Virus record (IMG/VR): IMGVR_UViG_3300033074_002135 | Location: 6,445 to 70,444 of that record | Source: a virus | Lineage: Duplodnaviria; Caudoviricetes | Strand: one strand, 5' to 3' | Length of the DNA stretch: 64,000 nt | Part shown: one piece after another, positions 40,042 to 61,618 of the stretch | How the letters are laid out: every line of letters starts with the position of its first letter | Position numbering within the stretch: the stretch's first letter is position 1 | Made by a program: the position numbers and the translations under genes | Notes under the pieces: generated by a model | The model's database searches: none | What the model was told of the DNA's origin: nothing | The model's input: only the letters and a program-made list of their open reading frames with translations

Positions 40042-41445
40042 TCACTCGCAGTGCTCGATCACCATCGCGCGCTTGTAGCGCGAGTTGTCGCCCGTCGCCG
40101 CGTCGGTGCGCACCGGCCAGTCGCCGATGAACTTCCACGAGGTCGCGACCTGATCCTGAAGACGGTTCAGCGGGCCACGGATGATCATCTGGATTCGATC
40201 GCTCGAAACCTCGATCCCGTTGTTGACGATGCGCGGGTCGGCGACCGCGCCGGTGATGCCGGCCTCGGTGATGAGCGCGTCGAGGTTCTGGTGGTACTCC
40301 ATCACGCCGCCCTGCGCCGTGAAGAGCATCCGGTGAACCGGGCCGCCCGAGGTGACGCCGCCGATGTAGAGCTCGCCGGGGAACGGGTCGCGGTCGTCGT
40401 AGGTCGCCGTGAGGCCGCCCACGACCGTGCTCGGAACCGGGCACTCCGAGTTGCGGAGGAACACGGTGGAGAGCATCTCGCCGATCGCGAACTGCTTGTA
40501 GACGTAGTAATCCGGCAGCGCCGTGAGGAGCCGCTGAAACTCGTCGTCGTTGAAGATCTTGGCCTGCGAGACCGGATCGAGGTGGCAGTGGAAGCGCTGG
40601 TCCGGATGCTCCGGAACGTTCTGCTCCCAGAAGTGGGCGATCGCCGTGCGGATGTCCGCGAGCGTCGGGGTGTCGGTGCCGACCGTGAGGTCGTCGACCT
40701 TGTTGCCGCCGCCGACCCGCACGAGGAAGGTACGGTCGACCGCGAGCACGTACGCGCGGTCGAGGACGTTGGTCGTCGCCGCGCCGAGCGTGAGGACGCC
40801 GGGACCGTACTCGTCACCGGGGGTGTCCGGCGTGAAGCCGATCACGGTGTTGGGCGTCGCGACGGCGTTGTCCAACACCGTGATCGCGAGCGGGTTGGAC
40901 GACGAGACGAGGTCGAACCGGACGTTGCTTCCGCCCGAGAGGTTCGCGTTGCGAGCGCGGGTGAAGCCGTTGAGGCGCTTCACGCGCAGCGAGGTGGTGG
41001 CGACCGCCGCGCCGTCCGCCACCGTGTGACCCGAGAGGGCCGAACGGTAGAGGACGTTGCGGACGATGCGGTTGAGCGTCTGCGACGCCTGCATCCCGAG
41101 CTGGTGCGCGTTGCGCATGAAGAGGTCGATGATCGCGGTGATCGACGTCGGCATGTGCGTGTCGATCGTGCCGCTGTACTGGCGGATCTTCGCCTCCCAC
41201 TGCTCGATCGGGTACGACGTCGGCGTCGGGTCGACGCCGGGTGCCGTCGGGCGCGCGTCGACCGGGATGAGGCCGGGCGCGCTGAAGATCATCGTGTCGC
41301 CGACGTTCTGCGGCCACTCCACCGGAGTCGCCTCCGCGCGGAAGAGCTGTCGGGGGAACAGGGCGTCGTGGAACGCGCGCTCGAGCATGCTCTGCTGCAC
41401 GACCGCTCGAACCTGCGGAGTCTGGAGAATGGTGGAGAAGTCCAT
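40042..41445 (-). CDS. Major capsid protein (HK97 fold, N4-gp56-like)
   Basis: QNVGDTMIF, KIRQYSGTID, LGMQASQTLNRIVRN, PLNRLQD..SWKFIG; follows scaffold. Confidence 0.9.
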   Translation of the reverse strand: MDFSTILQTPQVRAVVQQSMLERAFHDALFPRQLFRAEATPVEWPQNVGDTMIFSAPGLIPVDARPTAPGVDPTPTSYPIEQWEAKIRQYSGTIDTHMPTSITAIIDLFMRNAHQLGMQASQTLNRIVRNVLYRSALSGHTVADGAAVATTSLRVKRLNGFTRARNANLSGGSNVRFDLVSSSNPLAITVLDNAVATPNTVIGFTPDTPGDEYGPGVLTLGAATTNVLDRAYVLAVDRTFLVRVGGGNKVDDLTVGTDTPTLADIRTAIAHFWEQNVPEHPDQRFHCHLDPVSQAKIFNDDEFQRLLTALPDYYVYKQFAIGEMLSTVFLRNSECPVPSTVVGGLTATYDDRDPFPGELYIGGVTSGGPVHRMLFTAQGGVMEYHQNLDALITEAGITGAVADPRIVNNGIEVSSDRIQMIIRGPLNRLQDQVATSWKFIGDWPVRTDAATGDNSRYKRAMVIEHCE

Positions 41446-41494
41446 GATCTTTCCTCTTCGAGCGTAGTGCTCAGTCGGGTCTGTTTGTATCACT

Positions 41495-41534: not shown

Positions 41535-42374
41535 TCAGACCCCCAGCGCGGGGTTCTTGATCTTCAGATCCTTGAGGAGCTTGTCGTACTCTTCGCGGCT
41601 CATCTTCCGAGCGTCGACGAGCTTCGGCGCGGGCGCCGGGTCGTCGCCAGCAGCCGGCTTCGGTGGAGCGCCGTCCCCGTCCGGCTTGGTGCCGGGAGGG
41701 GTCGGGTCCGAGTGGGCCGGGGCTTGCTGGGCGTTGAAGAGATACGGGTGCGTCTTGGCGAGACCCTTGAAGAAGGCGGTTTCGTCGTAGCTCTTGAGCT
41801 CGTCCGGAGACTTCTTCCGCACGTCGCGGCGCAGGAGCTCGACCGCGTAGTCGATGTCGCTGATCCCACACCGCGCTGCCGCAGTACGGAGCTCCATCTC
41901 GACCTCGAGAGCCTCGGCTCGCTGCTCGGCCGCCTTGCGCTTCGCCTCTTCGCGAGCCCGCGCGCGGTTCACGCGACGGAGCTCTTCCAAGTCGGCCCCA
42001 CGGGTCGGCTCGGTGCTGGGAGGGTCGGCGGGCGGGGCCTCGCGTCGTTGGATCTTCTTCACGGGTTTCTTCTTCGCCGCCGCCGTCATCATGTCCTCCA
42101 CGCTCTCGAATCCGAGCTCTTTGGCCTTCGCTTCCATCTCCGCGCGTGCAGCCTTGCGGCCGCGCTCGCGTTCGTCGCGCTTGATGCGCGCCATCGCCGA
42201 CTGCGGAATCGTGAGCACCGCGCCCTGGGGCGGCGGCTCTCCCGACGGGTCAGCCGGAGGCGGCGCGGGAGGCGCCGCGGGAGGCGTCGGTTCGGGGGTG
42301 GGGGTTGCCTGCTGGGGCGGCGGGCTGGGGGGTTGATCCGGGGGCTGCTGCTGTGGGTTGTTGTCGATCTGCAT
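41535..42374 (-). CDS. Capsid scaffolding protein
   Basis: Pro-rich N-terminus, coiled coil, LAKTHPYLF, DARKMSREEYDKL C-terminus; directly upstream of MCP. Confidence 0.85.
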   Translation of the reverse strand: MQIDNNPQQQPPDQPPSPPPQQATPTPEPTPPAAPPAPPPADPSGEPPPQGAVLTIPQSAMARIKRDERERGRKAARAEMEAKAKELGFESVEDMMTAAAKKKPVKKIQRREAPPADPPSTEPTRGADLEELRRVNRARAREEAKRKAAEQRAEALEVEMELRTAAARCGISDIDYAVELLRRDVRKKSPDELKSYDETAFFKGLAKTHPYLFNAQQAPAHSDPTPPGTKPDGDGAPPKPAAGDDPAPAPKLVDARKMSREEYDKLLKDLKIKNPALGV

Positions 42375-44326: not shown

Positions 44327-44878
44327 TCACTCCAGCGCCGCACCGTCGTCGAGATCGTCCTCGAACTCGTCGACGGGCTCCTCTTCCTCTTCCTCTTCGA
44401 GATCTTCGTCCGCTTCCTCGGAGTCCTCGTCTTCGACCGCCAGCTTCCCGGAGTCGACGAGCCCGCCGATGTGGAAGAGCAGCGAAACGACGGCCTCGGG
44501 CTCGTCGAAGAGCTCGAGGCTCGACACGACCTCGAGCATCGGCTCGTACTCCTCGAGCTCGAGGTCGCCGAGCGACTCCGCCATGGCGGAGAGCAGTTCG
44601 GGGCTCAGCATCTCGCCGAGGTTCTCGAGAAGGATCTCTTGCTCCTCCTCGCTGAGCTCTTCCTCGATGTTCATCACCGCGTCGCTGAGCTCGGTGAGAA
44701 CCTCGTCGAGCGCTTCCGCGTTCTCCTCCATGTACGGAAGGAGCTCGTCGAGGCGGCCGACCTCGACGTCGTCGAGGTGCTCGTCCGCGGTCTCGATACC
44801 ATCGTCGATCGCATCGAGCTCTTCTTCGCCAGGCTTCGGGCCGGCGAAGGCCGCCATCTTGTTCGGGTCGATTGCCAT
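44327..44878 (-). CDS. Hyperacidic protein (183 aa)
   Basis: Hand count about 68 D/E versus 4 K/R; AGAGGAG RBS. Confidence 0.85.
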   Translation of the reverse strand: MAIDPNKMAAFAGPKPGEEELDAIDDGIETADEHLDDVEVGRLDELLPYMEENAEALDEVLTELSDAVMNIEEELSEEEQEILLENLGEMLSPELLSAMAESLGDLELEEYEPMLEVVSSLELFDEPEAVVSLLFHIGGLVDSGKLAVEDEDSEEADEDLEEEEEEEPVDEFEDDLDDGAALE

Positions 44879-44922: not shown

Positions 44923-45861
44923 TCAGCGTTGCAAGTACACGCGCCGGCCGCTCTTGTATCGCCAGGCGGGGATTCCCCAGTCAGGCATCCACGGAGTCAG
45001 CACTGCGCGATCATTGGGGCGGTTCGGCGGATGAAACCACGACTGCCCGATCAGTCGAGCGATGCTCTTCTTCGCCAGCCCCGAGCCGCTCGGGAGCGAC
45101 TTCGGCATCCTGAACGCCTTGCCGGGCTCGGCGACCTGCCCGTGCATCGCGAACGAGTCGGCTGCCACGCGATCGTCGAAGGGCTCGCCGCTCGCGTCAT
45201 CGATCAGCTCGGTCCACCGCATCATCATGCCGGGATGGCTCGCGCCCAGCGCCTTGACGCCCTCGACTTGCGCCGCGTTGTACGCGTAGCTCGCCTCGGT
45301 TCGGATCACACGCTCCACGCGCCACCAGTTCTCCGAAACGGCTGCAGTGATCGCATCCAGCGCGTCGGACATGCGCGCGTCCTCACGCAAGGTGACGTCC
45401 AGCAGGCTGCGTCGTACGGCCTTGTCGACCTCCTGCTGAATGGCCGCGAGGGCCTGTCCGCGTGCCGGCGCGAGCGCGGCGCGTGGGGCGAAGGCGGCGG
45501 CTCTGAACGCGCTCTCATCCTCGAGCGCGCCGCCGGTCCCGGTGAGCCTGCCTGCGAAGCGCGTGAGGCCCCGCAGCGACTCCTCGACGGCGACGCGGCT
45601 GGCGGTGTCGAGCTCACGCTCGAGGCGGTCTGCAGCGCGCGCGACAGCAGCCGACGCTGCAGCCCGCAGGCGCTTCATCTGCGAGGGGTCGACCGCACGA
45701 GCTGCGCTGCCTCGGTACGTCTTGCGCAGCACACGCTCGAGATTGCCGACCTCTTCGTCGAGGATGGTCTGCGCCGAGCTGATCGCAGACCTGTCGAGGA
45801 GTCGGTCAGCCCGCGTGCGGGCTGCTTTGATCTCCCCGAGGGCGCGGTCGCGTTTTGCCAT
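44923..45861 (-). CDS. Head morphogenesis protein (Mu gpF/SPP1 gp7-like)
   Basis: ERVIRTEASYAYN, RWTE..DDRV..S..MHGQ, PPNRPNDRAV (Cys-free variant). Confidence 0.85.
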   Translation of the reverse strand: MAKRDRALGEIKAARTRADRLLDRSAISSAQTILDEEVGNLERVLRKTYRGSAARAVDPSQMKRLRAAASAAVARAADRLERELDTASRVAVEESLRGLTRFAGRLTGTGGALEDESAFRAAAFAPRAALAPARGQALAAIQQEVDKAVRRSLLDVTLREDARMSDALDAITAAVSENWWRVERVIRTEASYAYNAAQVEGVKALGASHPGMMMRWTELIDDASGEPFDDRVAADSFAMHGQVAEPGKAFRMPKSLPSGSGLAKKSIARLIGQSWFHPPNRPNDRAVLTPWMPDWGIPAWRYKSGRRVYLQR

Positions 45862-46180
45862 CCCCCGTCAATAGCACACCCACACCCCAGGCCCACAGCC
45901 GCGTCTTCAGCCCGCACCACGTGCCGAGCACCCACCAACGCCAGATGACGAACCAGGCGATCGACAAGAGCTCTCGGGTCTCGACCGCGTGCATCACGAT
46001 GTTGTCGGGCGGCCTACCGCCCATCACGTCGAAGTGACCGTCGCGCGCTTTCACGATCGTCACGCGGCCGTTCTCGTTGCGGACATAGAACGCGAGGCCG
46101 TGGCCGGGCGCGTGGAAGTCGTCCGCGGTCTCGACGCTCAGTCGGCGAACCAGCCGCGCAGCCAGTCGTGCTTTGATCAT
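45806..46180 (-). CDS. Hypothetical protein (124 aa)
   Basis: ATGA overlap with HNH gene. Confidence 0.55.
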   Translation of the reverse strand: MIKARLAARLVRRLSVETADDFHAPGHGLAFYVRNENGRVTIVKARDGHFDVMGGRPPDNIVMHAVETRELLSIAWFVIWRWWVLGTWCGLKTRLWAWGVGVLLTGDGKTRPRPRGDQSSPHAG

Positions 46181-46917
46181 GTGATGTACCGCTTCCGCCC
46201 ACTCGGCAGGAGGATGAACTTCCCGCCCTTCTTGCCGCGCTGCACCGTGCCGGCCTTCTTGGGCTTGGCCTTCGGCTCGGGCTCTGCCTTCTGCGCCGCG
46301 CCCTTCTTCGCCGGCTTCTTCGGCTCTTTGTCTCGGTACCGGGCAGTGGCTTCGGTGGGCGTCTCGGCGTGGATCTCACGGATGCGCTTCGCGCGGCGGG
46401 CTTCGTTCTCTGCAAGGATCGCCTTGGCCGCCTTCCGCTGAGCCGGCGACCCGGTCTTCGCCAGCTCGTGGAGCCGCGTCTCTTCGCGCTTCTCGATCTC
46501 CAGCTCGTCCCGACGGGTGACGAGCTGGTATTCCATGTAAGCCTCTTTCCCGTGCTTCTTGCGGTACGCGGCAGCGTCGGCCTTGCGCTCCTCGAGCATC
46601 TTCTTGCCCTCGGCACGGTCGATCGGGGTCTCGACCAGCTTGGCGATGCGCTTCTTGATCGCAGCAATGTCGTGCCCGCGCGGCGCGAGGAAGTCCTTGA
46701 GAAACTTGTCGAGGGGCTTGTCCTGCTTCACTGAGTTGCAGCGGTTGCACATCGTCAGCAGGTTGGAGTCGAGGTTCTGTCCGCCGCCCGCGCTCGGTTC
46801 AATGTGATCAACGGTGAGGCCGTATCCGTGTGGTCCACCCCGCGCCCCGCAGCAGGCACAGCGATTGCCGTCACGCCGGTACAGAGCCAGACGCCGGTCT
46901 GGCTTGATCCAGTTCAT
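46177..46917 (-). CDS. HNH endonuclease fused to a basic region and the C-terminal GKKGG..SGRKRY motif
   Basis: RDGNRCACC..LTVDHIEP..GG.N..NLLTMCNRCNSVK; Lys-rich tail. Confidence 0.9.
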   Translation of the reverse strand: MNWIKPDRRLALYRRDGNRCACCGARGGPHGYGLTVDHIEPSAGGGQNLDSNLLTMCNRCNSVKQDKPLDKFLKDFLAPRGHDIAAIKKRIAKLVETPIDRAEGKKMLEERKADAAAYRKKHGKEAYMEYQLVTRRDELEIEKREETRLHELAKTGSPAQRKAAKAILAENEARRAKRIREIHAETPTEATARYRDKEPKKPAKKGAAQKAEPEPKAKPKKAGTVQRGKKGGKFILLPSGRKRYIT

Positions 46918-46947
46918 CCCCTGACCGGCCTTACGAGCAACCACTGA

Positions 46948-47322
46948 TCACCTCAGAACGTAGCGGCGAAACCAGTTAGAGACCGCGGTCATCCCGGCGT
47001 CGATCGTCAACGTCTCGCCGGTGAGCGCGTCGGCGACGCCGTCGAGCCACACGCCGTCGAGGCCCTCGAGCGCCTTGCGCGCTTCCTCCTTGAGCGTCCG
47101 GGGCCAAGGCACCCCTGCTGCGACCGCGGCCTCGAGCTCATCGGCGTGCGCGAGGAAGAACTCGAACGCGGCGAATGCGCGCCGCGACGCGGGGTCGTCC
47201 TCGAGCATGCGCACGCTCTGCTGTGGCACGTAGGCGAGTGTCGGCTCGCTATCGAGCTCACCGTCCTCGTCCTCTTCGACAGGCTCGGGGGGAGGGGCTG
47301 CCCACTTGGTGAGATCAGCCAC
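46948..47322 (-). CDS. Hypothetical protein (124 aa, acidic N-terminus)
   Basis: GTG start overlapping upstream stop. Confidence 0.7.
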   Translation of the reverse strand: MADLTKWAAPPPEPVEEDEDGELDSEPTLAYVPQQSVRMLEDDPASRRAFAAFEFFLAHADELEAAVAAGVPWPRTLKEEARKALEGLDGVWLDGVADALTGETLTIDAGMTAVSNWFRRYVLR

Positions 47323-47725
47323 GGCCGCCCTTCCCGATGTAGCGCTTCTTCCCCGAGGCCGTCACGACGTACTTGCCACCCTTCTTGCCCTGCTGCACGT
47401 GCAGCGCCGGCTTCGACTCGGGCGGCGGGCGATCGCTCGCCGCAGCAGGCTTGGCGGCAGCTCGTGGCGCGCTCCCCCGGTACAGATCGGGATACGCGCT
47501 CCGCGCATGCTGCCCGCGCTGCGAGTCGTGGTGCGCCTTGTCCTGGCGCGAGCGCGCGGCCGCGTGAGCGTCCACATGCGCCTGCGCAGCCACGACGTGG
47601 TCCTCGCGCCGCCCCGAGCGCGCGGCCGTCTGCGACGCCGTCTCGGCGCGCTGCCGCAGAACCGCGTAATCGCTCCCGCCTTGTGCGCGTTGCACGCTCG
47701 CGGCCGTTCTCCTCTTCGCAGCCAT
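47315..47725 (-). CDS. Basic low-complexity protein with C-terminal GKKGG..SGKKRY motif
   Basis: GAGG RBS; ends VQQGKKGGKYVVTASGKKRYIGKGGRG. Confidence 0.8.
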   Translation of the reverse strand: MAAKRRTAASVQRAQGGSDYAVLRQRAETASQTAARSGRREDHVVAAQAHVDAHAAARSRQDKAHHDSQRGQHARSAYPDLYRGSAPRAAAKPAAASDRPPPESKPALHVQQGKKGGKYVVTASGKKRYIGKGGRG

Positions 47726-47733
47726 CGCTCACC

Positions 47734-48126
47734 TCACGACGTGATGATCTTGTCCGTGCCGGGACCCCGATTGATCTCGACGATGCAGTGCGAAGGCGCC
47801 TTCGCGAGCTGCTTCTCCATCTCTCGCGCGCAGCTCTTGCACGCGTAGACGACCGAGCAGCGGTAGTAGGGCGTCGGCGACCCGTCGCTCGACTTGATCT
47901 GCACGACCGACTTCATGAAGTCCTCGGGCGAGAGCTGCGAGAGCTGCGCGACCGCCGGGTTCTTCAGCGCCTCCTTCAACTCCATCATCACGATCGCGCG
48001 CAGCAGCGGGCGCCTGCTGCACCCCGCGCACGTCGCGCCGATCGGAAAGGCGTGCTGTTGGTGGACCTCTTCCGCGGTCTGTCGGCCGCCAAAGAGCTTC
48101 TTCCGATGGATCGTTTTGCCGCTCAT
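47734..48126 (-). CDS. Zn-binding hypothetical protein (130 aa)
   Basis: CAGC and CKSC pairs. Confidence 0.8.
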   Translation of the reverse strand: MSGKTIHRKKLFGGRQTAEEVHQQHAFPIGATCAGCSRRPLLRAIVMMELKEALKNPAVAQLSQLSPEDFMKSVVQIKSSDGSPTPYYRCSVVYACKSCAREMEKQLAKAPSHCIVEINRGPGTDKIITS

Positions 48127-48419
48127 TCGCTCTGCTCCTTCGGCTTCGCCCCCGCGAGAGCCTCTCTGTGCGCCACAACCCTCTTGTGGTGCTGATCCAC
48201 TTGCTCGACGTCGCCCACCTTCTTCGCAGCTCTACGCGCTCTCAGATGCGCATTCAGAGCTCGAGTCCGCGCAGCCTCAACGTCACCCTGCAACCGCGCA
48301 GCGGACCGTGCCGCAGCCTCGTGCTTGGTAGCACGCTCCGAGAGCTTCTTCGAGAGCGTGCGCGCCGCGTCGACCGGCGTCGGTGTCGTTGAGGCTGCGC
48401 GCTTGATCGGGCGCTTCAC
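48123..48419 (-). CDS. Basic helical protein (98 aa)
   Basis: GTGA/ATGA coupling; Arg/Lys/Ala-rich. Confidence 0.7.
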   Translation of the reverse strand: MKRPIKRAASTTPTPVDAARTLSKKLSERATKHEAAARSAARLQGDVEAARTRALNAHLRARRAAKKVGDVEQVDQHHKRVVAHREALAGAKPKEQSE

Positions 48420-49120
48420 CGCGCCTTCTTCCCGAGATAGCGCTTCTTTCCCGACGGAGTCATCACGTAGCGGGCACCGCTGGCCGAGGTCTGGACCTGC
48501 GCCTTCGGCCGGGCTGCTGCGGGGCTGGCGCCCGCTCCCTGGCCCGCTGCTGCGGGTACGCGATGGCGCTTCGGCGTCGCGATCCCCTTCTGACTGTGGC
48601 TGATCCCCTCGGGACTCGCGGGGCGCCGAGGCACAACGTGATGTGGGGCCGTCGAGGCCGGACTGCTCGCGCCCGGATGCCGCTTCGGCGTCGCGATCCC
48701 CTTCTGGCTGCGGCTGACGCCCGCAGGCGCCCCTCCCGCCGGCACGGTGTGGTGCGGCCGAGTTCCGCTTTTGTTGGTCGGTGCGCCGTACGACCCGTCC
48801 GGTCGCTGCACGGCCTTCATCATGTCGGCGGTATCGTTCCGCATCGTGTGCTGCCGCCGAAGGTTGCCAGCCGCCGCAGACCGGTCGGCGGGGCGCGTAC
48901 CCACGCTCGCTGCCTTGGTGCGCACCGTAGCGGCAGAACGCTCGGGCGCACGAACCTCCCTACCGTCCTGGCCGTGCGCGTTCGACATCTGCTTCGTGCG
49001 GCGATGCTCGTGCCCACGATCGGAAGGCCGCACAGCGCTGTTGCCCGGCGTTGGCTTGGTTAGCGGAGTCCGCTTCGGCTTCACGTAGGTGGAATCGGGG
49101 TAAGAAGGGCGTCTCGGCAT
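48416..49120 (-). CDS. Basic disordered protein with internal repeat and C-terminal SGKKRY motif
   Basis: GAGG RBS; two SQKGIATPKRH repeats; ends SGARYVMTPSGKKRYLGKKAR. Confidence 0.8.
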   Translation of the reverse strand: MPRRPSYPDSTYVKPKRTPLTKPTPGNSAVRPSDRGHEHRRTKQMSNAHGQDGREVRAPERSAATVRTKAASVGTRPADRSAAAGNLRRQHTMRNDTADMMKAVQRPDGSYGAPTNKSGTRPHHTVPAGGAPAGVSRSQKGIATPKRHPGASSPASTAPHHVVPRRPASPEGISHSQKGIATPKRHRVPAAAGQGAGASPAAARPKAQVQTSASGARYVMTPSGKKRYLGKKAR

Positions 49121-49128
49121 GATCTACC

Positions 49129-50817
49129 TCACTTGATGTATCGCTTACGTCCGCTCGGGAGAAGGATGTACTTGCCACCCTTCTTGCCCTGCACAATCCG
49201 ACCCTTCGAGCGAGAGCCGGGTCCGCGAGCTCGGTCCTCGGCGGGCTGATGGGCGGACCCGGCAGAACCCGGCGCCGGACCAGACGGTGCGACGCGGGTC
49301 GTAACCAGGCCATGACGCCGCGCCTTGCGCGTCTCGATGTATTCCTCACGCATCGACTTCAGGCGATCGGCAGTCCCGTGATCGTTGTTCTGCCGCGCGT
49401 GAGCTTCTGCGTCTGACAGCGCCTTGAGCGCGCGGCTGCGCTTCGCGTAGCTCGCGTCAGGCGTGAGACCGCGGTGCAGCATCTCCGCTCGACCGACGAC
49501 GAGGTCTTGCGCCTTCCTCTTAGCGCGCGACTCCTCGCCCTTGACGCGCCGCTCGTGCTCGGCAAGCCGCGCCGCAAGCGGCATCTCTCGCGTGGCCGCC
49601 ACGGCGTCGGAGCGCTTGGGCTCTGCGGAGCGCGTGGGCTCTGCAGAGCGCTCGGGTGCGGGCGTGCCGCGTACCGCGGAGACGAAGCCCTCGTGAGACG
49701 CGCGCTGCTCCGGGGTCGGGGCCGACGCCGCTGCCTGCTCGTGGAGCCTCACGGCGTGCGCCTCGGCTCGATCTGCCGCCGCGACCGAGGCGGGGTCGCC
49801 TCTGCGTGCTGCGATGCCGCGGAGGACCGCAGCTCGGCGCGCCTGCTGGTCTGCACGCAGCGCTTGGTCCGCATACGTCTCCGCCGGCTTGCTTGCCGGT
49901 GGACCCTGCACCTCGACCCGCTGCTCGGAGCTCGCGCCACGCAGCACGACCTGATGCGCGCTCGTAGCCGGTGGTGGTACCTCAGGCGTACGCCCCCCGT
50001 TCGTAGCAGTCGACCGGTGCTCGCTGCGTGCTTCCTCGTGTCTGCGCACCGCGCGATCACGTTGATCTCCCGTCAGCCGCTCACGTGCAATGTGCGCAGC
50101 AACCTCGTGGGCGGCTTGCGCTTCCGCATGATCGTCGGCATCCCCGGTCTCATCTGCGATCGCCGACATGCGCCGCGCAATGTGGTGCGCGCGTACGTAC
50201 TCGGGATCGTCTGGAGCCCTTTGGTCGGCCGGCGTAGCGCCCATCGGGGGAGGCGTTGCAGGAGCACGCGTCGGAGCCGCGCGGCGCCCGCGACTCTGCG
50301 AGCCGGCTTCCGCCTGCGGAACGCCTGCTCGGCTCGACGCGTCCTGCAAGCGCGCTGCCATGGCGCTCGGGAGGCTTCGCAGGCCGCCGGTCTCCTCGAG
50401 CTTGGCGACGTGCGCGCGGTGCTCTGCGCCTGCACTGCGTGCGGCTCCTCGGTGCCGCTCAGCTTCCGCGGAATCGCCGGCGGCTTCGTGCGCCTCGGCG
50501 GCACGCCGGTAGCGAACCGCCAGCTCAGCCGCCGCGAGCGCGGCTTCAGCTCGGGTGGTGTGCGGCGCTCCGGGGCGTGCCGCCTCTTGGCGGATCTCGC
50601 TGAGCTCTTCAGCAGCGGCCGCTGCAGCCCGCATCGCGATGGTTGCTCGCGATCGCGCGTCAGCCTGCGCCGCCCCACCGCTGCTGCCCACCGGCGCAGC
50701 GCGCCGGCCCTGCCGCTCCTCACGGAGACGCCCTTCGTGGATTGCACGCAGCTCTTTGCGCGCGGCGCGCTCCGCTGCGAGGCGCTCTGCCTTCTCTCGG
50801 TCACGTCGTGTCGCCAT
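49129..50817 (-). CDS. Ala/Arg-rich protein (562 aa) with C-terminal GKKGG..SGRKRY motif
   Basis: GGAG RBS; ends KGRIVQGKKGGKYILLPSGRKRYIK. Confidence 0.8.
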   Translation of the reverse strand: MATRRDREKAERLAAERAARKELRAIHEGRLREERQGRRAAPVGSSGGAAQADARSRATIAMRAAAAAAEELSEIRQEAARPGAPHTTRAEAALAAAELAVRYRRAAEAHEAAGDSAEAERHRGAARSAGAEHRAHVAKLEETGGLRSLPSAMAARLQDASSRAGVPQAEAGSQSRGRRAAPTRAPATPPPMGATPADQRAPDDPEYVRAHHIARRMSAIADETGDADDHAEAQAAHEVAAHIARERLTGDQRDRAVRRHEEARSEHRSTATNGGRTPEVPPPATSAHQVVLRGASSEQRVEVQGPPASKPAETYADQALRADQQARRAAVLRGIAARRGDPASVAAADRAEAHAVRLHEQAAASAPTPEQRASHEGFVSAVRGTPAPERSAEPTRSAEPKRSDAVAATREMPLAARLAEHERRVKGEESRAKRKAQDLVVGRAEMLHRGLTPDASYAKRSRALKALSDAEAHARQNNDHGTADRLKSMREEYIETRKARRHGLVTTRVAPSGPAPGSAGSAHQPAEDRARGPGSRSKGRIVQGKKGGKYILLPSGRKRYIK

Positions 50818-50820
50818 CGG

Positions 50821-51246
50821 TCAGTCTCCGTGCTGGTGGATGATGCCACGCCAACCACGGAGCCGGAAGTCGCTGCCGCGGTCGTCGACGAAGAGGTCGA
50901 CCGAGGGCTTGCCCTGGTGCTCCCAGATCAACGCGAAGACACCGGGGAGCTCTGTGTTGACGAAGTCGATCATCTGGCGGTAGCGCGCCTCGTTGAGCTC
51001 GCGGCTCGCCTCCCACCGCTTGCGATCGAGCTTCTTGATGCCCGCGATGACGAAGGGGTCCATCTCCGGGTTCGCGAACAGCCAGCGGTTCGCTCGCGCG
51101 CTGTAGAGCACGAGGACGTGGCCTGCGGCCTTCAAACGAAGAAGCCCTCCGCGGGCTCCGGGAAGGAACCGAAGAGGGGTCTTGAGGTCGTCGTAAGCGT
51201 GGTCGTCGCGAACGATCGTGCCATCGAAGTCAACTGCGATCTTCAT
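50821..51246 (-). CDS. HAD-superfamily phosphatase (capless)
   Basis: IAVDFDGTI, LYSAR, GKP..LFVDDR. Confidence 0.9.
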   Translation of the reverse strand: MKIAVDFDGTIVRDDHAYDDLKTPLRFLPGARGGLLRLKAAGHVLVLYSARANRWLFANPEMDPFVIAGIKKLDRKRWEASRELNEARYRQMIDFVNTELPGVFALIWEHQGKPSVDLFVDDRGSDFRLRGWRGIIHQHGD

Positions 51247-51803
51247 CCGAGATACCGCTTCTTTCCGCTCGGCGTGACGATGTAGTAGCCACCCTTCTTG
51301 CCGCGCTTCACTCCACCAGCACGCTGCCGATCTGAGAGCTCAGGCTGCGGAGCTCCACCAGGCTTCGGAGCTCCGCCAGGCTTCGGTGCGCGCTTCGGGG
51401 TACCGCCGGGCTGAGGCCGCGGCTTTCGCCGCGGTGTCGGCTGCGGCTTGGGCTTCCCTGGCTTCGGCTTCGGCGGCGCTTCGTCGTCATCGAGCGTGAA
51501 GCGTGGGTGCCGCTCGAGGATGTCGGGGCCCGATGCGCGTCGCACGTGCTCCCGCGCACTCGCCAGCGACGCACGCGCGGACTCGCTGAGCCCGGCATCT
51601 GGGTGCGCGCCGAGGAAGTTCGCGGCAGGCGACTGCGCCTTCCCCGCCCCACCTGTCGAAGCGCGCGGCTGTCGCGCCTGCGTCGTGCGCGTGCTCTCTG
51701 CGGCGAAGGCGAGTAGCTGCCGAACGCGTGGGTTGCTGGATCGCTGCGCCGCAGCGTCCACGCGGTCGGCCACCAACTGCCGAAGTCGATCTCTAAGACT
51801 CAT
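51243..51803 (-). CDS. Basic Pro/Lys-rich protein with C-terminal GKKGG..SGKKRY motif
   Basis: GGAGG RBS before ATG 51803; PKPGGA repeats; ends GVKRGKKGGYYIVTPSGKKRYLG. Confidence 0.8.
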   Translation of the reverse strand: MSLRDRLRQLVADRVDAAAQRSSNPRVRQLLAFAAESTRTTQARQPRASTGGAGKAQSPAANFLGAHPDAGLSESARASLASAREHVRRASGPDILERHPRFTLDDDEAPPKPKPGKPKPQPTPRRKPRPQPGGTPKRAPKPGGAPKPGGAPQPELSDRQRAGGVKRGKKGGYYIVTPSGKKRYLG

Positions 51804-52243
51804 CGGCGCCTCCTCCGGTTCCTCAAGCGCAGGCGATCCTTGCGCTTCGCCTCTTCGCTCTTCGCCCACTCGAGGACGCGGTGCTCGTCCCGGCAGCGGT
51901 AGAGCCGCGCGACGCTGCCCTCCTCGATCGCAGCGTCGAGCCACCCCTTCTCGACGAGGAGTTTGATCTCCTCCCAGCGAATGCCCCATCGCTTGATCCA
52001 GAACGCGGCCGACCGCCAGCCATCCAGCGGCGGTAGGCCGCCCTCACGAACGACGCGGTACGTGATGCCGTCCTCGGGGTCCTCGAACGGCGTACCGGCG
52101 CGGAAGGGCGCGTCGGGGCTGCCCGGCTGCACGCGGAAGTCGGTGATCGGCTCACCGCTCCGGTTGCGTGGGACGTCCTTATGGGCTCCGGGCCAGTCGC
52201 GTGCGAGCACGGTCTGGCCTCGGATGCGCATGCGTGTCGGCAT
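51800..52243 (-). CDS. Hypothetical protein (147 aa)
   Basis: TGATG start coupling, ATGA end overlap. Confidence 0.7.
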   Translation of the reverse strand: MPTRMRIRGQTVLARDWPGAHKDVPRNRSGEPITDFRVQPGSPDAPFRAGTPFEDPEDGITYRVVREGGLPPLDGWRSAAFWIKRWGIRWEEIKLLVEKGWLDAAIEEGSVARLYRCRDEHRVLEWAKSEEAKRKDRLRLRNRRRRR

Positions 52244-52506
52244 CAGTCGTCCTTCTGAACCACGTTGTCCTCGACGTGCCTGGTGATCAGAGATTGCTGC
52301 GCGGTGGCAACGGCGCCGATCAGTGACACGTCCATCACGGTGTTGTGGTCGAACGTGAAGCCGCCGTCGGCACGCACCGCGACAACGAGATAGCCGGTGA
52401 TGGGGCGGGCATCCTCGAGCACCCGCTCGACCGCGGCGCTCAGGTGCTCTCGGAGCTTCTCGTCGCGCTTGACGGCGAGCGGCTTGAGTTGCGTGACGTC
52501 GCTCAC
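52243..52506 (-). CDS. Hypothetical protein (87 aa)
   Basis: GTGA overlap with portal stop. Confidence 0.75.
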   Translation of the reverse strand: MSDVTQLKPLAVKRDEKLREHLSAAVERVLEDARPITGYLVVAVRADGGFTFDHNTVMDVSLIGAVATAQQSLITRHVEDNVVQKDD

Positions 52507-54905
52507 GGTTCGTCTTCCTCATCGAGCCCCGAGTAGTCGGACTCGCGCGGTTCGGGGTCCTCGTCCTCCGCGTCCAGCGCCCCGCTCTCGTCCTCGGACG
52601 GGCGCTCCGGCACCTCGGGAGGGGTCGGGAGCTCTCCGGCCGCGTCCGGGGCGCTGGGCGGCTCTGGGAGGGCGTCGCCGGGCGGCTCGGCGGCGGGCGC
52701 CTCCCCCTCGACCCCGACGGCCGGGACGAAGCTCGGGTCGCCGAGGACGGCCTCGGCCTCTGCCGCAGAGAGGCCGAAGGCGGTCTGGAGGATCGCCTTG
52801 CCGGACTCACGCGAGAGGAGGCGCTGAGCGACCTTCTCGACGATGCCCGCGAGGGCGGTGACCTGCGCACCGTTGAGCGCGGTCTTCTGGATCTCTTCGG
52901 TCTCGCCGCCCTCGACACCGGCGCTCCCGAGCATCCGGGCGATCGCGCCATCGTCGAAGACCGGGAAGGCGACGCGGATCATCTCGGTGGCGGCGGCAGT
53001 GGGGAGCTCGCCGTTGAACACCTTGCTGACCAGAGCCAGCAACTCCTTGAGCTCCGACGGTTCGAGGCGTGCGGGTGCTTCCTCGGGAGCGCTCGCTTCC
53101 TCGAGGCCCTGGACCAGCGGGTCCACGAGCTCGCTGGCGAGCGCCTCGAGCTCTTCGTCCGAGGGCTGATCCTCGAAGTCGTCGAGCGGCACGTCGTAGC
53201 CGTCGAGCATGTCGACGCCCTCGAGCTCTGCGGCAAGCGCCGGGTCGACCTCGTCGATCTCCTCGTCTTCCATCGGCGCACCGGTGTCGTAGCCGCCCAT
53301 CGCCGAGTCGAGTTCTTCCTGCTGCGCCGCCTGGAGCTTCTCCACGAGCTCGGCGACGTCCTCGATCTTGAAATACTCGGCGATGAAGCGCACCGCATGC
53401 TCGAGGTCGACGATGCCGAAGTTCATCGCCTGCCCCGCCGCGCTCACCGCCGCGTTGATATCGTCGAGGCCGGGCTCGTACCAGTCAGGCCAGTCGAGCT
53501 CGAGGAGTTCGCCCGCGCCGAGCTTGCGCTTCTCACCGGTCTTCTTGTTCGGCGGCAGCTTCACCACGCGTCGCATGATCCGAGCGACGCCGTTCTCCTC
53601 CACGGCCTGCGGACGGTCGAGCATGCGCGCCGCCTTCAGCACCATCTGCAACAGGCGCTTCACGCCGCGCTCGCCGTACTGCTCACGCAACAGACCCGCT
53701 TGCTCGAGCATGTTGGCGTAGTTCTGATCGACTTCCTTCTCGGTGCGGGCGGGGCCGCCGAAGTTGTCCTCGAGCACGCAGCGGCACAGACGCAGTGCCC
53801 GCGACTCGAGTAGCTCGGCCTGCTCCATCGCCGCCTTCGGGCCCGTGCCGTTGATCTCGAGGTAGCTGACCTGCCCGCCGACGCTCGTTTGGATCGCGTT
53901 GTCGGAGCCCTTGCGCAGCCCCGAAGGGACCTCGTCGTCGGTCGCGATGTGCAGCGTCGGATCGCAGTTGGAGAGGATCCCTCGGTTGGACTGAGAGATC
54001 AGACTGTCGATGGTCTCGATGAGGTCGAAGGCGCCGTGGCAGTCAGGATCGCCGTCGATGTCGTCCTGCACCTCGTTGTTCTGGATCCAGACGACGGGCA
54101 CGAAGCCGAAGTTGTGCTCCGACGTGAGCGCTTGGAAGTCCTGCCAGCGCGGCTCGCCCTGCTCGTGCTCCGCCGGCACGCGCGGCCACACGACGTCCTT
54201 CGTCTTGTCGATGACACGCCGGTACCAGAACCACATCTCGCGGCGCTCGCCGCTGTTCGGGTCGATGATCGTGTCCTTGTACTGGTAGCGCTTCTCGAAG
54301 CGCCGAAGGATGAGCTCTTCGCGATCCTCGAAGACCGGGATGCACCAGCGCGGGTCGTGGACCTGCACGCGGGGCTCGCCGTCCTTGAAGACGAAGCCGA
54401 TCGCGACCGAGCCCATCGCTCCGCCGTACGTCCGCGCGAGCGTCATCTTCGACCACAGGCGCGTCGCCTCGCAGAACCCCGTGATCCAATCGTCCGTGTC
54501 AGGGTCGTCGCTCACGATCGTGTTGGGGTGCTTCTTGTCGCCGAAGAGCAGGCCGTTGAAGCGGCTGACGACCGCCTTCGCCAAGTAGAAGGGCGCGTCG
54601 GGCTTGCGGAAGCGCAGCGGGAGCTGCGAGCCGCTGGCCTCGTAGAAGCCCGGCGGCGTGAAGCCGCTCGTGACGATCGTCTCAGCCTCGAGGTGATCGA
54701 CCACCGGCGAGCCGTCCCACGCAGTCTTGCGACTCTCGTAGTTCGTGCAGCGGAAGAAGGTCCACAGACGGTTCAGCTCGAGCTGCCTCGCCGACAGAGG
54801 GCCGTACGGGACGCCGCTCTCTGCCTTGTCGTTGCTGCCCTGCCCTCCGCCGCCCCGCAGGAGTCGACCGATCTCACCCACACCGTTGACCGTGCCGCTG
54901 CTCAT
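52503..54905 (-). CDS. Portal protein (SPP1/A118-like) with long acidic C-terminal extension
   Basis: Directly after terL; HNFGFVPVVWIQN, LIETIDSLISQ..CDPTLHI. Confidence 0.9.
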   Translation of the reverse strand: MSSGTVNGVGEIGRLLRGGGGQGSNDKAESGVPYGPLSARQLELNRLWTFFRCTNYESRKTAWDGSPVVDHLEAETIVTSGFTPPGFYEASGSQLPLRFRKPDAPFYLAKAVVSRFNGLLFGDKKHPNTIVSDDPDTDDWITGFCEATRLWSKMTLARTYGGAMGSVAIGFVFKDGEPRVQVHDPRWCIPVFEDREELILRRFEKRYQYKDTIIDPNSGERREMWFWYRRVIDKTKDVVWPRVPAEHEQGEPRWQDFQALTSEHNFGFVPVVWIQNNEVQDDIDGDPDCHGAFDLIETIDSLISQSNRGILSNCDPTLHIATDDEVPSGLRKGSDNAIQTSVGGQVSYLEINGTGPKAAMEQAELLESRALRLCRCVLEDNFGGPARTEKEVDQNYANMLEQAGLLREQYGERGVKRLLQMVLKAARMLDRPQAVEENGVARIMRRVVKLPPNKKTGEKRKLGAGELLELDWPDWYEPGLDDINAAVSAAGQAMNFGIVDLEHAVRFIAEYFKIEDVAELVEKLQAAQQEELDSAMGGYDTGAPMEDEEIDEVDPALAAELEGVDMLDGYDVPLDDFEDQPSDEELEALASELVDPLVQGLEEASAPEEAPARLEPSELKELLALVSKVFNGELPTAAATEMIRVAFPVFDDGAIARMLGSAGVEGGETEEIQKTALNGAQVTALAGIVEKVAQRLLSRESGKAILQTAFGLSAAEAEAVLGDPSFVPAVGVEGEAPAAEPPGDALPEPPSAPDAAGELPTPPEVPERPSEDESGALDAEDEDPEPRESDYSGLDEEDEP

Positions 54906-54913
54906 AGATCGCC

Positions 54914-56437
54914 TCACCTCGACATCGTATCGATTCGGTACGTTCTAGCACGCTTCTTCGGCGGCTGTCGTGCGCCCTCGCGAGCGAACCACATCGACAT
55001 CAAGTGGTCGGCCGTGTGCTGCTGCGGGTCGTAGTAGAGCATCCCGGTCACCAGTGCATCGAGCTCGCGGCTCGCGGGCTTGCCGTTCTTCGACGGGATG
55101 ATCCACTTGCCGTTCGCCATCTCAGTCGCCAAGGACTCGATGCCGAACTCGACGTTCGACTTGTTGCGCCCCGTCGTGAACGGCCGCACCGGGACCGCCG
55201 ACAGGTCCTTCGTGAAGTCGACGATGTACTGCTGTGCTGCGTTGTTCTCGACGATGATGATCGAGCCGTAGCGCCGGTGGGTGTCGATGATGCGGTCGAC
55301 GATCTCGCGCGCTGCCCAGCGGCCGCTCTCCACCCAGAGGATCTCGCGGTCCTCGTTGGGGTGCACGAGGATGGTCGTCAGTACGGTGCGGTCTGAGCCG
55401 CGCTTCTGGCGCACGCCGAGGTCGACGCCTGTGAGGACCGCGAAGCCCGGCGGGATCGCGTTGAGCGCGAACGCGGGGTCGTAGCCGTCGCCCCGCCGCA
55501 GCGCGATGTCGATCCACTCGCGTTTGAAGCGGCTCGAGCTCTCGTCCCGTGGGATGCACAACAGCAGTCGTGCGAACTCGTGCGCCAGCAGGCGCGAGCG
55601 CGCCTCCTCGATACGATCGAGCGGCCAACGCTCCGGCCACGTGCTCTCGCCGTTGACGATCACCGGAAACTTGCGCCACTTGTACTCGCCGGTCTGGGCG
55701 AGGTCGTGCATCAGATCCTCGGGGTGGAAGGCGTTGCCGAGGATGCGCACGCGGGCTGAGCGCGTGAGACGGCTCATCGGAACACCGTAGTACCAGTCCT
55801 TGACCTTCTGCCGCTTCTGCGGCGTCGATGTGTTCTCGAGCGTCAGCAAGTCGTCGCCGATGAAGCGGTCGGTACGCGAGCCGGTGAGCGACGCGGTGCC
55901 GACCGACACCGATTGCATCGTGGGGTCCTTCGGCGTGCCTCGCCGGCCTGGGATGTCGACCGCAATCGCCGACTCGGACCAGATGGCGCCCGGCTTGATC
56001 TCGGGGAAGACATCGCGGTACGGGCCCGGCTTCTCGATGTGCCGGCGCACGGCTCCAACGATGCGGTTCGCGTAGCGCATCGACGCAGCGCCGACGACGG
56101 TGCGGAGGCGCGGGTTGTTGCCGATCTCCCACAGCGTGTGGCCGATAGCGAGCTGCTGCGTCTTCCCGCTCTCGATGTGCCCCCAGACGATCAGCTTGTC
56201 GTTCTCGACGGCGAGGTGCTGGAAGGTCTCGTGCAGCGGCGCCTGCGTGATCGGCCCGCCGGTCTCTTCGTCGCGCAGCACCAGCTCGCAGAGCTCGTTC
56301 GGATCCTTGCGCGCGAGCGTCACGCGGTGCCAGTAGAGCTCGGTGCGCAGCTCTTCCGCGCGCTCGGGGTTGCCCTTCACCCACTCGGCGAGGTCAGGCA
56401 GCGACATCGAGCGCAGGTCATCGAGGTGCATCGCCAT
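54914..56437 (-). CDS. terL: Terminase large subunit
   Basis: Walker A-like HIESGKT, Walker B FIGDDL, nuclease GVDLG and HTADHLMSMW. Confidence 0.92.
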   Translation of the reverse strand: MAMHLDDLRSMSLPDLAEWVKGNPERAEELRTELYWHRVTLARKDPNELCELVLRDEETGGPITQAPLHETFQHLAVENDKLIVWGHIESGKTQQLAIGHTLWEIGNNPRLRTVVGAASMRYANRIVGAVRRHIEKPGPYRDVFPEIKPGAIWSESAIAVDIPGRRGTPKDPTMQSVSVGTASLTGSRTDRFIGDDLLTLENTSTPQKRQKVKDWYYGVPMSRLTRSARVRILGNAFHPEDLMHDLAQTGEYKWRKFPVIVNGESTWPERWPLDRIEEARSRLLAHEFARLLLCIPRDESSSRFKREWIDIALRRGDGYDPAFALNAIPPGFAVLTGVDLGVRQKRGSDRTVLTTILVHPNEDREILWVESGRWAAREIVDRIIDTHRRYGSIIIVENNAAQQYIVDFTKDLSAVPVRPFTTGRNKSNVEFGIESLATEMANGKWIIPSKNGKPASRELDALVTGMLYYDPQQHTADHLMSMWFAREGARQPPKKRARTYRIDTMSR

Positions 56438-61376: not shown

Positions 61377-61618
61377 CGCGATCTCCCGACTCGGATGGTG
61401 ACCTCGAGCGCGCCGTCTTCCTCTTCACGCCGGCGTTGGAGCTCGTCGGTGAGGTAAGCGACGAGCTCGTCGTCGAGCTCGTGCGCGCGCACGAAGTTGA
61501 GCAGCAGCTCGTGGACCTCGATGGTGTTGGCCTCGAACCGGCTGCGCAGACGCGCGATGCGCTTTTCGAGCGCCACCCGAGGGATCTCGGGCAGTTCGAG
61601 CTGCGGGCCGCCCGCCAT
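61373..61618 (-). CDS. Hypothetical protein (81 aa)
   Basis: TGATG coupling to queE. Confidence 0.65.
   Translation of the reverse strand: MAGGPQLELPEIPRVALEKRIARLRSRFEANTIEVHELLLNFVRAHELDDELVAYLTDELQRRREEEDGALEVTIRVGRSR

What the first reader, a model, noticed from the sequence alone, without database searches (positions are those of the whole stretch)
46177..46917. HNH nuclease carrying the shared tag: a packaged effector rather than a homing enzyme?
Seen: an intact HNH/Zn core, a helical linker, a KEPKKPAKKGAAQKAEPEPKAKPKK tail and the tag. Established: HNH proteins near terminases can be packaging cofactors (HK97 gp74) or homing endonucleases. Inference: the tag suggests delivery inside the virion, for example to cut unmodified host or competitor DNA on entry while the 7-deazaguanine-modified phage genome is spared.
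Basis: inference. Interest (0 to 1): 0.7.

Follow-up and report, generated by a model that had tools for sequence, protein, structure and literature searches.

The report
Phage HNH nuclease with cargo tag
An uncultured phage encodes an intact-looking DNA-cutting enzyme ending in the same short basic peptide as four other head-region proteins, so it is probably loaded into the virus head, but whether it attacks host DNA or helps package phage DNA is still open.

Summary
Window 46177-46944 (minus strand) encodes a 255-aa protein. The conserved N-terminus favours the GTG at 46944 over the ATG at 46917. It has four parts:
- an intact McrA/Cas9-type HNH core (C4 zinc site and the D-H, N, N residues invariant in 60 relatives);
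- long helices;
- a disordered Lys/Pro/Ala linker;
- a 22-aa basic beta-hairpin tag.

The same tag ends four very basic proteins, and the genome has no other copies. All five genes lie between the portal and the MuF-like, scaffold and capsid genes. The copies differ at synonymous sites, so the peptide itself is under selection.

HNH+tag proteins recur in eight 50%-identity clusters. Tagged genes sit at the same head-module position in five related phage lineages.

The tag resembles Pfam PF08789 (PBCV basic adaptor) only below threshold. Published work reports PBCV-1 proteins annotated with that domain as abundant, DNA-associated virion proteins.

Best reading (about 0.5): the tag is a shared head-loading or DNA-core adaptor, so the HNH is head cargo.

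The effector idea, with 7-deazaguanine protecting the phage genome, is untested. A packaging role is a serious rival: relatives keep an untagged HNH at this spot and this phage lacks it.

The scan found a PF08789-like shared tag before, in another virus (e1-5851312).

The parts
46177..46944 (-). Tagged HNH nuclease gene (255 aa from the GTG at 46944; 246 aa from the ATG at 46917)
   Evidence: ORF and composition. Pfam HNH and HNH_5 above cut-off. N-terminal extension conserved in relatives.
46618..46917 (-). HNH beta-beta-alpha-metal core with C4 zinc site (approximate bounds)
   Evidence: Invariant C20, C23, C57, C60, D37, H38, N52, N61. pLDDT 91-98. Nearest structures are Cas9 HNH, ScoMcrA, EcoKMcrA and Gme HNH.
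46330..46617 (-). Helical spacer (model helices 101-196); length varies widely among relatives
   Evidence: AF2 secondary structure. Large gaps in P0018, P0019, P0020 and P0008.
46246..46329 (-). Disordered Lys/Pro/Ala-rich linker
   Evidence: pLDDT 53-64. Sequence and length not conserved.
46180..46245 (-). C-terminal basic beta-hairpin tag VQRGKKGGKFILLPSGRKRYIT
   Evidence: pLDDT 82-89 with two strands. Conserved in all HNH+tag relatives.
47315..47725 (-). Tagged basic protein, 136 aa, pI 11.1
   Evidence: Sub-threshold PF08789 hit.
48416..49120 (-). Tagged basic protein, 234 aa, pI 11.8 (divergent tag SASGARYVMTPSGKKRYLGKKAR)
   Evidence: Orthologues P0012-P0014.
49129..50817 (-). Tagged Ala/Arg/Glu/His-rich protein, 562 aa, pI 10.7
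   Evidence: Sub-threshold PF08789 hit. Tag differs from the HNH tag mainly at synonymous sites.
51243..51806 (-). Tagged basic protein. The ORF runs to 51989 but the start is probably the ATG at 51806.
46948..47322 (-). Small acidic protein (124 aa, pI 4.2) immediately upstream of the HNH; cassette partner and possible inhibitor or chaperone
   Evidence: Homologues lie on contigs of the same lengths as those of the HNH homologues. It aligns with the gene upstream of the L003 tagged HNH. No acid124-like gene was detected in G001 or L185, which lack the tagged HNH. No fold match.
52506..53327 (-). Acidic C-terminal extension of the SPP1-like portal (274 aa, net charge -59, two ~45-aa helical modules); candidate docking site for the tags
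   Evidence: The docking role is inference only.
44327..44878 (-). Hyperacidic protein (183 aa, 68 D/E, pI 4.1), conserved in tagged lineages; alternative candidate partner
   Evidence: Not annotated in the head module of Streptomyces phage Kromp. The partner role is inference only.
44923..45861 (-). MuF-like minor head protein, which closes the cargo region
   Evidence: Weak PHROG hit. The 32%-identical homologue in L185 hits head-morphogenesis and minor-head-protein PHROGs.

Best explanation
The gene encodes a catalytically intact McrA/Cas9-type HNH nuclease. A helical spacer and a flexible Lys/Pro/Ala linker join it to a roughly 20-residue basic beta-hairpin adaptor. The same adaptor ends four very basic proteins encoded in a lineage-specific insert between the portal and MuF genes.

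Shown: the adaptor is a real module under selection, and it is tied to the head module.

Inferred: it docks all five proteins to one partner inside the assembling procapsid. The most plausible partners are acidic surfaces, namely the portal's long acidic C-terminal extension or the hyperacidic protein. The tagged proteins would then be enclosed and lie with the packaged DNA. In function this resembles the capsid-targeting sequence of the T4 internal proteins or an encapsulin cargo peptide. On this reading the HNH is head cargo.

What the HNH does as cargo is open. It could cut DNA in the newly infected cell, or it could process DNA at the portal during packaging.
For: - There are five tags and no others in the genome, far above chance.
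- Synonymous differences between tag copies show selection at the protein level.
- All tagged genes lie between the SPP1-like portal and the MuF-like, scaffold and capsid genes. The same holds in L003, G001, L185/L189 and L190, whose capsid proteins are 56-81% identical.
- Streptomyces phage Kromp, the closest cultured capsid relative, has a compact portal-MuF-scaffold-capsid block with no such insert.
- HNH+tag is kept in 8 clusters at 31-47% identity, while the linker varies freely.
- The tag is predicted as a confident hairpin after a disordered linker.
- 10 of 21 tagged proteins hit PF08789 (best E 4.3e-4), the only recurrent non-HNH family. The ESM Atlas search on the tag alone ranks PF08789 clusters first and third.
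- A looser DNA pattern finds 'GPKGG.Y....G.K.Y' modules (the PF08789-type motif as I recall it) and further C-terminal tags in other viral contigs.
- PBCV-1 A278L and A282L, which are annotated with that domain, are abundant, DNA-associated virion proteins (PMC3281028).
- T4 targets basic internal proteins, and engineered nucleases, into heads through one shared short peptide (PMC9026906).
Against: - There are no virion proteomics; the phage is known only as a metagenomic contig.
- No PF08789 score seen here reached the gathering cut-off (the scores shown were 16.6-16.8 and 14.3-15.1 bits against 20.4). The ESM scores of 0.78 are leads only.
- The binding partner was not tested; no multimer modelling was available.
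- A basic hairpin could simply bind DNA in the cytoplasm.
- An active nuclease stored beside the genome needs a safeguard that has not been shown.
- G001 and L185 carry tagged basic proteins but no tagged HNH, so the HNH is an optional passenger of the system.
Confidence: 0.5

Rival explanations
1. Packaging nuclease. The HNH works with the terminase and portal during DNA packaging, either in end formation as HK97 gp74 or lactococcal HrdP do, or in clearing branched DNA as T4 endonuclease VII does when bound to the portal. The tag only holds it at the portal. This is compatible with head localisation but not with an effector role.
For: - Relatives keep an untagged HNH of a second type at this exact locus: L003 6647-7039, G001 (L101 8756-9157) and L185 9789-10226.
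- The window genome has only the tagged HNH, so it may have taken over that job.
- The nearest untagged relatives are 110-150-aa phage HNH proteins. Two of ten large neighbouring genes sampled were terminase large subunits.
- There are weak Endonuclease_7 matches.
- Packaging HNH enzymes and endonuclease VII binding to the portal are documented (PMC12967558).
Against: - The gene is about 8 kb and eleven genes downstream of terL, not adjacent to it.
- The portal is SPP1-like and no prohead protease was seen, unlike the HK97-type sets linked with gp74.
- The protein is twice the usual size.
- The tag is shared with four non-enzymatic basic proteins that have no obvious packaging role.
- G001 and L185 do without the tagged HNH.
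- The contig is only about 80% complete, so a second HNH could lie off the contig.
Confidence: 0.27
2. Cytoplasmic DNA-binding tag. The basic hairpin is a general DNA clamp. The five proteins act on DNA in the infected cell late in infection, for example in nucleoid degradation or condensation, and are not carried in virions.
For: - The tag's conserved positions are Lys/Arg and aromatic residues, and the bodies are highly basic.
- The PBCV proteins annotated with the similar domain were isolated as DNA-associated proteins.
Against: - The genes lie strictly inside the head-assembly operon in five lineages.
- A plain DNA binder would not need to sit at the extreme C-terminus after a flexible linker in every case.
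- The PBCV proteins are also virion components.
Confidence: 0.13
3. Free-standing homing endonuclease that happened to insert in the head module.
For: - The distribution is patchy: present in the window lineage and L003, absent in G001 and L185.
- It diverges faster than the structural genes: HNH 36% against capsid 77% identity.
Against: - Pfam found no NUMOD, IENR or AP2-type DNA-binding domain.
- Its C-terminal module is shared with four non-nuclease proteins.
- The HNH+tag architecture is kept across eight 50%-identity clusters.
- It travels with a conserved upstream partner gene.
Confidence: 0.07

Closest known systems
Capsid targeting sequence (CTS) of phage T4 internal proteins IPI-III and Alt (PMC9026906)
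   Same: One short shared peptide directs several unrelated, mostly basic proteins into the head. CTS fusions loaded nucleases (EcoRI, staphylococcal nuclease) into heads and delivered proteins into cells.
   Different: The T4 CTS is N-terminal, about 10 residues long, and is cut off by the prohead protease. Here the tag is C-terminal, is a predicted folded hairpin unrelated in sequence, and no protease gene was seen. Here the nuclease cargo would be natural, not engineered.
Pfam PF08789, PBCV-specific basic adaptor domain (chlorovirus PBCV-1 A278L and A282L kinases; PMC3281028)
   Same: A small basic module with a GG-aromatic ... G-K-x-Y pattern, attached to unrelated proteins. Its PBCV-1 bearers are abundant, DNA-associated virion proteins.
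   Different: No score shown here reached the gathering cut-off (16.6-16.8 bits against 20.4). The host virus here is a tailed phage with an HK97-type head module, not a giant virus. The function of the PBCV domain itself has never been shown.
MuF polymorphic toxins and polyvalent proteins of phages (PMC5576092, PMC5512222)
   Same: Nuclease-type effector domains tied to head-internal proteins and predicted to be injected with the DNA. A small partner gene lies next to the enzyme gene.
   Different: The HNH is not fused to MuF. The MuF-like gene is separate, two genes downstream. The link would be a detachable peptide tag. The partner gene lies upstream and has no recognisable immunity fold.
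Packaging-associated HNH proteins (HK97 gp74, Geobacillus GVE2 HNH, lactococcal sk1 HrdP; PMC12967558)
   Same: A phage HNH nuclease encoded within the morphogenesis region, with a beta-beta-alpha-metal core.
   Different: Those proteins are about 90-120 aa, untagged and encoded next to the terminase genes. This one is 255 aa, carries a spacer, linker and tag, and lies between the portal and MuF genes.
Encapsulin cargo-loading peptides
   Same: Unrelated cargo proteins carry a short C-terminal peptide after a flexible linker, and the peptide binds the inside of an HK97-fold shell (from general knowledge).
   Different: The motifs are unrelated. Here the shell would be a DNA-filled phage capsid, and the receptor is unknown.

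Membership tests
HNH endonuclease (Pfam PF01844 / PF14279) | Profile score above the gathering cut-off | tested here: met
   36.2 bits against 21.4 and 36.6 against 27.5. Genome scan 39.6 bits.
HNH endonuclease (Pfam PF01844 / PF14279) | Catalytic D-H, structural Asn, metal-binding Asn/His and the CxxC...CxxC zinc site are present | tested here: met
   D37, H38, N52, N61, C20, C23, C57 and C60 are invariant in 60 sequences. The core is confident in the model.
PBCV basic adaptor domain (PF08789) | Profile score above the gathering cut-off (20.4 bits) | tested here: not met
   16.6-16.8 bits on isolated tags and 14.3-15.1 in the genome scan. 10 of 21 tagged proteins match at E<=1, best 4.3e-4.
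PBCV basic adaptor domain (PF08789) | A small basic module appended to otherwise unrelated proteins of one virus | tested here: met
   Five unrelated bodies in one genome. The ESM Atlas search on the tag ranks PF08789 clusters first and third, score 0.78, a lead only.
HK97 gp74-type packaging HNH | Gene adjacent to the terminase genes | tested here: not met
   terL is at 54914-56437 and the HNH at 46177-46944, with the portal and ten other genes between them.
HK97 gp74-type packaging HNH | Small single-domain protein (about 100-120 aa) found with an HK97-type portal, protease and capsid set | tested here: not met
   The protein is 255 aa with a spacer and tag. The portal matches SPP1_portal, a scaffold is present, and no protease was found.
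HK97 gp74-type packaging HNH | Stimulates terminase cleavage and is needed for packaging | not testable with these tools
   Needs biochemistry or genetics.
Free-standing homing HNH endonuclease | Accessory sequence-reading DNA-binding domains (NUMOD, IENR1, AP2 and similar) | tested here: not met
   No such Pfam hit at E<=1 in any of the tagged HNH proteins scanned.
Free-standing homing HNH endonuclease | Sporadic presence or absence among close relatives | tested here: inconclusive
   Present in the window lineage and L003, absent in G001 and L185, but always with the tag and the upstream partner gene.
T4-type capsid targeting sequence system | N-terminal propeptide removed by a prohead protease | tested here: not met
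   The tag is C-terminal. No protease gene was recognised in the head module. Cleavage itself cannot be tested here.
MuF polymorphic toxin | Toxin domain fused to the C-terminus of a MuF domain | tested here: not met
   The HNH and the MuF-like protein are separate genes with one gene between them.
MuF polymorphic toxin | Adjacent small immunity gene | tested here: inconclusive
   An acidic 124-aa gene co-occurs upstream. It has no family, fold or Atlas match.

The most novel reading that the evidence does not exclude
The phage uses a detachable C-terminal address peptide to load a natural HNH nuclease and a set of protamine-like proteins into its capsid. The address would dock on the portal's duplicated acidic C-terminal modules. 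The nuclease would be injected with the DNA and cut unmodified host or rival DNA. The phage's own genome would be protected by 7-deazaguanine, and the producing cell by the acidic partner protein encoded upstream.
Probability: 0.13. Interest if true: 0.8.

Novelty: new variant of a known kind. Interest (0 to 1): 0.55.

Why it matters
T4 workers had to engineer a way to load a nuclease into a phage head. A natural, modular address tag doing this would be new in three ways:
- It would show how phages mix and match injected cargo without fusing it to MuF or the portal.
- It would give the poorly understood PBCV basic adaptor type of module a testable function across very different viruses.
- It would offer a short tag for loading proteins into capsids.

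If the enzyme instead serves packaging, it would show a packaging nuclease held in place by the same tag as the internal proteins.

Tried and rejected
- The phage collection gave no match for the HNH protein, the 17.5-kb head region or the tag.
The contigs of P0002-P0005, P0017-P0020, P0032 and P0034 could therefore not be read.
- The metagenome scan returned only generic HNH cores, several on very long contigs that may be cellular, and no tagged ones.
- Cluster look-up gave no useful names.
- Foldseek on the HNH model gave only generic HNH hits in PDB and BFVD.
- The acidic upstream protein has no Pfam, PHROG, Atlas or PDB fold match, and it is not a paralogue of the hyperacidic protein. The immunity idea therefore rests on position alone.
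- Neighbours of the small untagged HNH relatives were mixed: four helicases, two terminases, the rest unknown or other. This is inconclusive.
- The second, untagged HNH type has no informative PDB sequence match.
- I considered folding a read-through fusion of the acidic protein and the HNH. I dropped it because no coordinates or error map are returned to judge an interface.

Full report
**Setting**

The window is most of a 70,444-bp IMG/VR viral contig. Its GC content is 66.8% and CheckV rates it about 80% complete. On the minus strand a tightly packed operon runs in this order:
- a probable small terminase (56437-57198);
- the large terminase (54914-56437, phrog_38, E 2.8e-54);
- an SPP1-type portal (52503-54917, PF05133);
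- eleven small genes;
- a MuF-like minor head protein (44923-45861);
- a hyperacidic protein (44327-44878);
- the scaffold (41535-42374);
- the major capsid protein (40042-41493).

The finding is one of the eleven small genes.

The ORF at 46177-46944 has coding-type composition. The finding's upper bound, 46917, is an internal ATG. The nine residues before it ('ARKAGQG') are conserved in close and distant relatives, so the GTG at 46944 is the likelier start.

The N-terminal 110 residues pass Pfam HNH and HNH_5. The four zinc cysteines, the D-H pair and two asparagines are invariant in a 60-sequence alignment, so the active site looks intact.

By sequence and by fold the core is closest to Cas9/IscB HNH domains, McrA-type restriction enzymes and the Geobacter Gme HNH nickase. 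These matches say nothing about specificity.

AlphaFold2 (mean pLDDT 85.5) adds three elements after the core: long helices at 101-196, a low-confidence Lys/Pro/Ala linker, and a confident two-stranded hairpin for the last 22 residues.

**The tag is real and under selection**

The motif SG[KR][KR][KR]Y occurs five times in the six-frame translation of the genome. Each copy lies at the end of a head-module ORF: 46177, 47315, 48416, 49129 and 51243. Simulated genomes give 0.065 on average.

The other four bearers are very basic (pI 10.7-11.8), low-complexity proteins with no family match.

The HNH tag and the tag of the 562-aa protein agree at 17 of 18 core residues, yet eight of those 17 shared core codons differ synonymously. 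The peptide is conserved, not recently copied DNA.

**Distribution**

- Five close homologues (76-98% identical) keep the tag, while the linker before it drifts in sequence and length.
- An exhaustive profile-free search found about 8,800 HNH relatives. Most of the best 150 are 110-150-aa single-domain proteins. Seven further cluster representatives have the HNH+tag layout at 31-47% identity (P0017-P0020, P0032, P0034, and P0003 for the window's own group). Their spacers range from almost nothing to about 150 residues.
- A tag-profile search and two degenerate DNA scans found tags only in a group of high-GC uncultured phages whose capsid proteins are 56-81% identical to this one: L003/L004/L005, G001, L185/L189 and L190. 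In each, the tagged genes lie between a conserved Cys-rich gene and the MuF-like, scaffold and capsid genes.
- Streptomyces phage Kromp, the closest cultured capsid relative at 32% identity, has a compact portal-MuF-scaffold-capsid block with no insert.

**What the tag resembles**

- Isolated tags give sub-threshold hits to Pfam PF08789, the PBCV-specific basic adaptor domain (16.6-16.8 bits against a cut-off of 20.4).
- Across 21 tagged proteins, PF08789 is the only recurrent non-HNH family (10 members, best E 4.3e-4).
- A language-model search with the tag alone ranks PF08789 clusters first and third, at scores that count only as leads.
- The looser DNA pattern also recovers 'GPKGG.Y....G.K.Y' modules in other viral contigs; I recall this as the typical PF08789 motif.

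I therefore treat the tag as working like that module, and perhaps distantly related to it. I do not file it as a member.

One paper in the library bears on the module. In PBCV-1, the kinases A278L and A282L are annotated with this domain. They are among the abundant virion proteins (about 400-530 copies) and were recovered with the viral DNA (PMC3281028).

**Best reading**

The points that favour a shared localisation adaptor for proteins enclosed in the head are these:
- one short C-terminal module placed after a flexible linker;
- its presence on five unrelated proteins;
- all five encoded inside the head-assembly operon;
- four of them protamine-like.

Proteins bound to DNA cannot pass the portal channel (established knowledge). 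Loading would therefore have to occur during procapsid assembly, through a procapsid partner.

Two acidic candidates stand out:
- The portal carries a 274-aa C-terminal extension with net charge -59 and two copies of a roughly 45-aa helical module. Relatives with two tags have 133-138 aa, net charge -21 to -23, and one module.
- The hyperacidic 183-aa protein is conserved in the tagged lineages tested (L003, G001).

Both ideas are inference.

The closest functional precedent is the T4 capsid-targeting sequence. It loads basic internal proteins, and it was used to load EcoRI and staphylococcal nuclease (PMC9026906). I put this reading at about 0.5.

**What the nuclease does**

This was not resolved.

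One new observation fits it. An acidic 124-aa gene lies directly upstream of the tagged HNH in the window lineage and in L003. It is absent from G001 and L185, which lack the tagged HNH. The two genes therefore behave as a cassette. However, that protein has no recognisable family or fold.

QueD-like and QueE-like genes are present (the QueE match falls below its curated cut-off), as is a ParB-like gene. Genome modification is therefore plausible. I did not verify DpdA, and nothing tests discrimination by the nuclease.

Against a pure effector role stands a second, untagged HNH type. L003, G001 and L185 all carry it at the same place, just before the MuF-like region. This genome has only the tagged enzyme. 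An HNH function therefore seems to be retained in this head module, and the tagged enzyme may supply it here. Packaging HNH enzymes, and binding of T4 endonuclease VII to the portal, are documented (PMC12967558).

The gp74-type membership features are not met: adjacency to the terminase genes, small size, and an HK97-type gene set.

I give the packaging role about 0.27, a purely cytoplasmic DNA-binding role about 0.13, and a homing enzyme about 0.07.

**Novelty**

The parts are known kinds: an HNH nuclease, a head-targeting peptide and a basic adaptor module. The combination appears undescribed: a natural nuclease carrying a detachable C-terminal address that it shares with internal basic proteins of a tailed phage. 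I rate it a new variant of a known kind.

The scan has already noted a PF08789-like shared tag in another virus (e1-5851312). I reached PF08789 before reading that note. I did not test its claim that the module is fused to portal, protease and MuF proteins elsewhere.

**Limits**

- No experiment exists and the contig is incomplete.
- The host is unknown.
- No multimer modelling was available.

Noticed in passing
window 52506-53327 (-); L003 1343-3259; L101 11178-13109: The portal's acidic C-terminal extension holds two copies of a ~45-aa helical module (LNGAQV..L.G...KV..G.LP...A.E.I..AFP) in this phage and one copy in relatives. Extension length and charge rise with the number of tagged proteins: 5 tags against 2 and 2. 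Kromp's 481-aa portal comes with no tags.
   Followed up: partly
L003 6647-7039 (+); L101 8756-9157 (-); L185 9789-10226 (-): A second, untagged HNH type (about 130-145 aa, HH...N...H form) sits just before the MuF-like region in three related lineages. It is missing from the window genome.
   Followed up: partly
window 46948-47322 (-): An acidic 124-aa protein (disordered acidic N-terminus plus a predicted five-helix bundle) co-occurs with the tagged HNH. No acid124-like gene was detected where the tagged HNH is absent. No family or fold match.
   Followed up: partly
window 50821-51246 (-): A 141-aa protein begins MKIAVDFDGTIV, a HAD-type DxDGT motif. It is conserved at 46-61% identity in all related head modules and has no Pfam hit. 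A phosphatase-like gene inside a head operon is unexplained.
   Followed up: no
window 47734-48126 (-): A Cys-containing 130-aa protein is the best conserved gene of the insert (41-73% identity across lineages). It always lies just before the tagged genes. Function unknown.
   Followed up: no
window 51243-51989 (-): The first ~61 codons of the first tagged ORF look non-coding. The real start is probably the ATG at 51806.
   Followed up: partly
P0006, P0015, P0016 (L003 clade): Tagged basic proteins of the L003 clade repeat the motif SQTQHGTATTHTPHD[RQ]AM, in some cases twice per protein. Its purpose is unknown; it could be a cleavage or metal-binding site.
   Followed up: no
L182, L183, L187, L191, L192, L194, L195: Low-GC viral contigs carry 'GPKGG.Y....G.K.Y' modules. 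Some are internal and one (L192) is a tandem pair. The proteins and their neighbours have no PHROG annotation.
   Followed up: partly
window 15613-16179 (-), 61618-62376 (-), 62421-63995 (-): QueD-like (PF01242, E 2e-27) and QueE-like (TIGR04508, E 5.5e-37, 127.6 bits, below its curated cut-off of 240) genes and a ParB_N domain were found. A DpdA/TGT-like gene was not checked here.
   Followed up: partly
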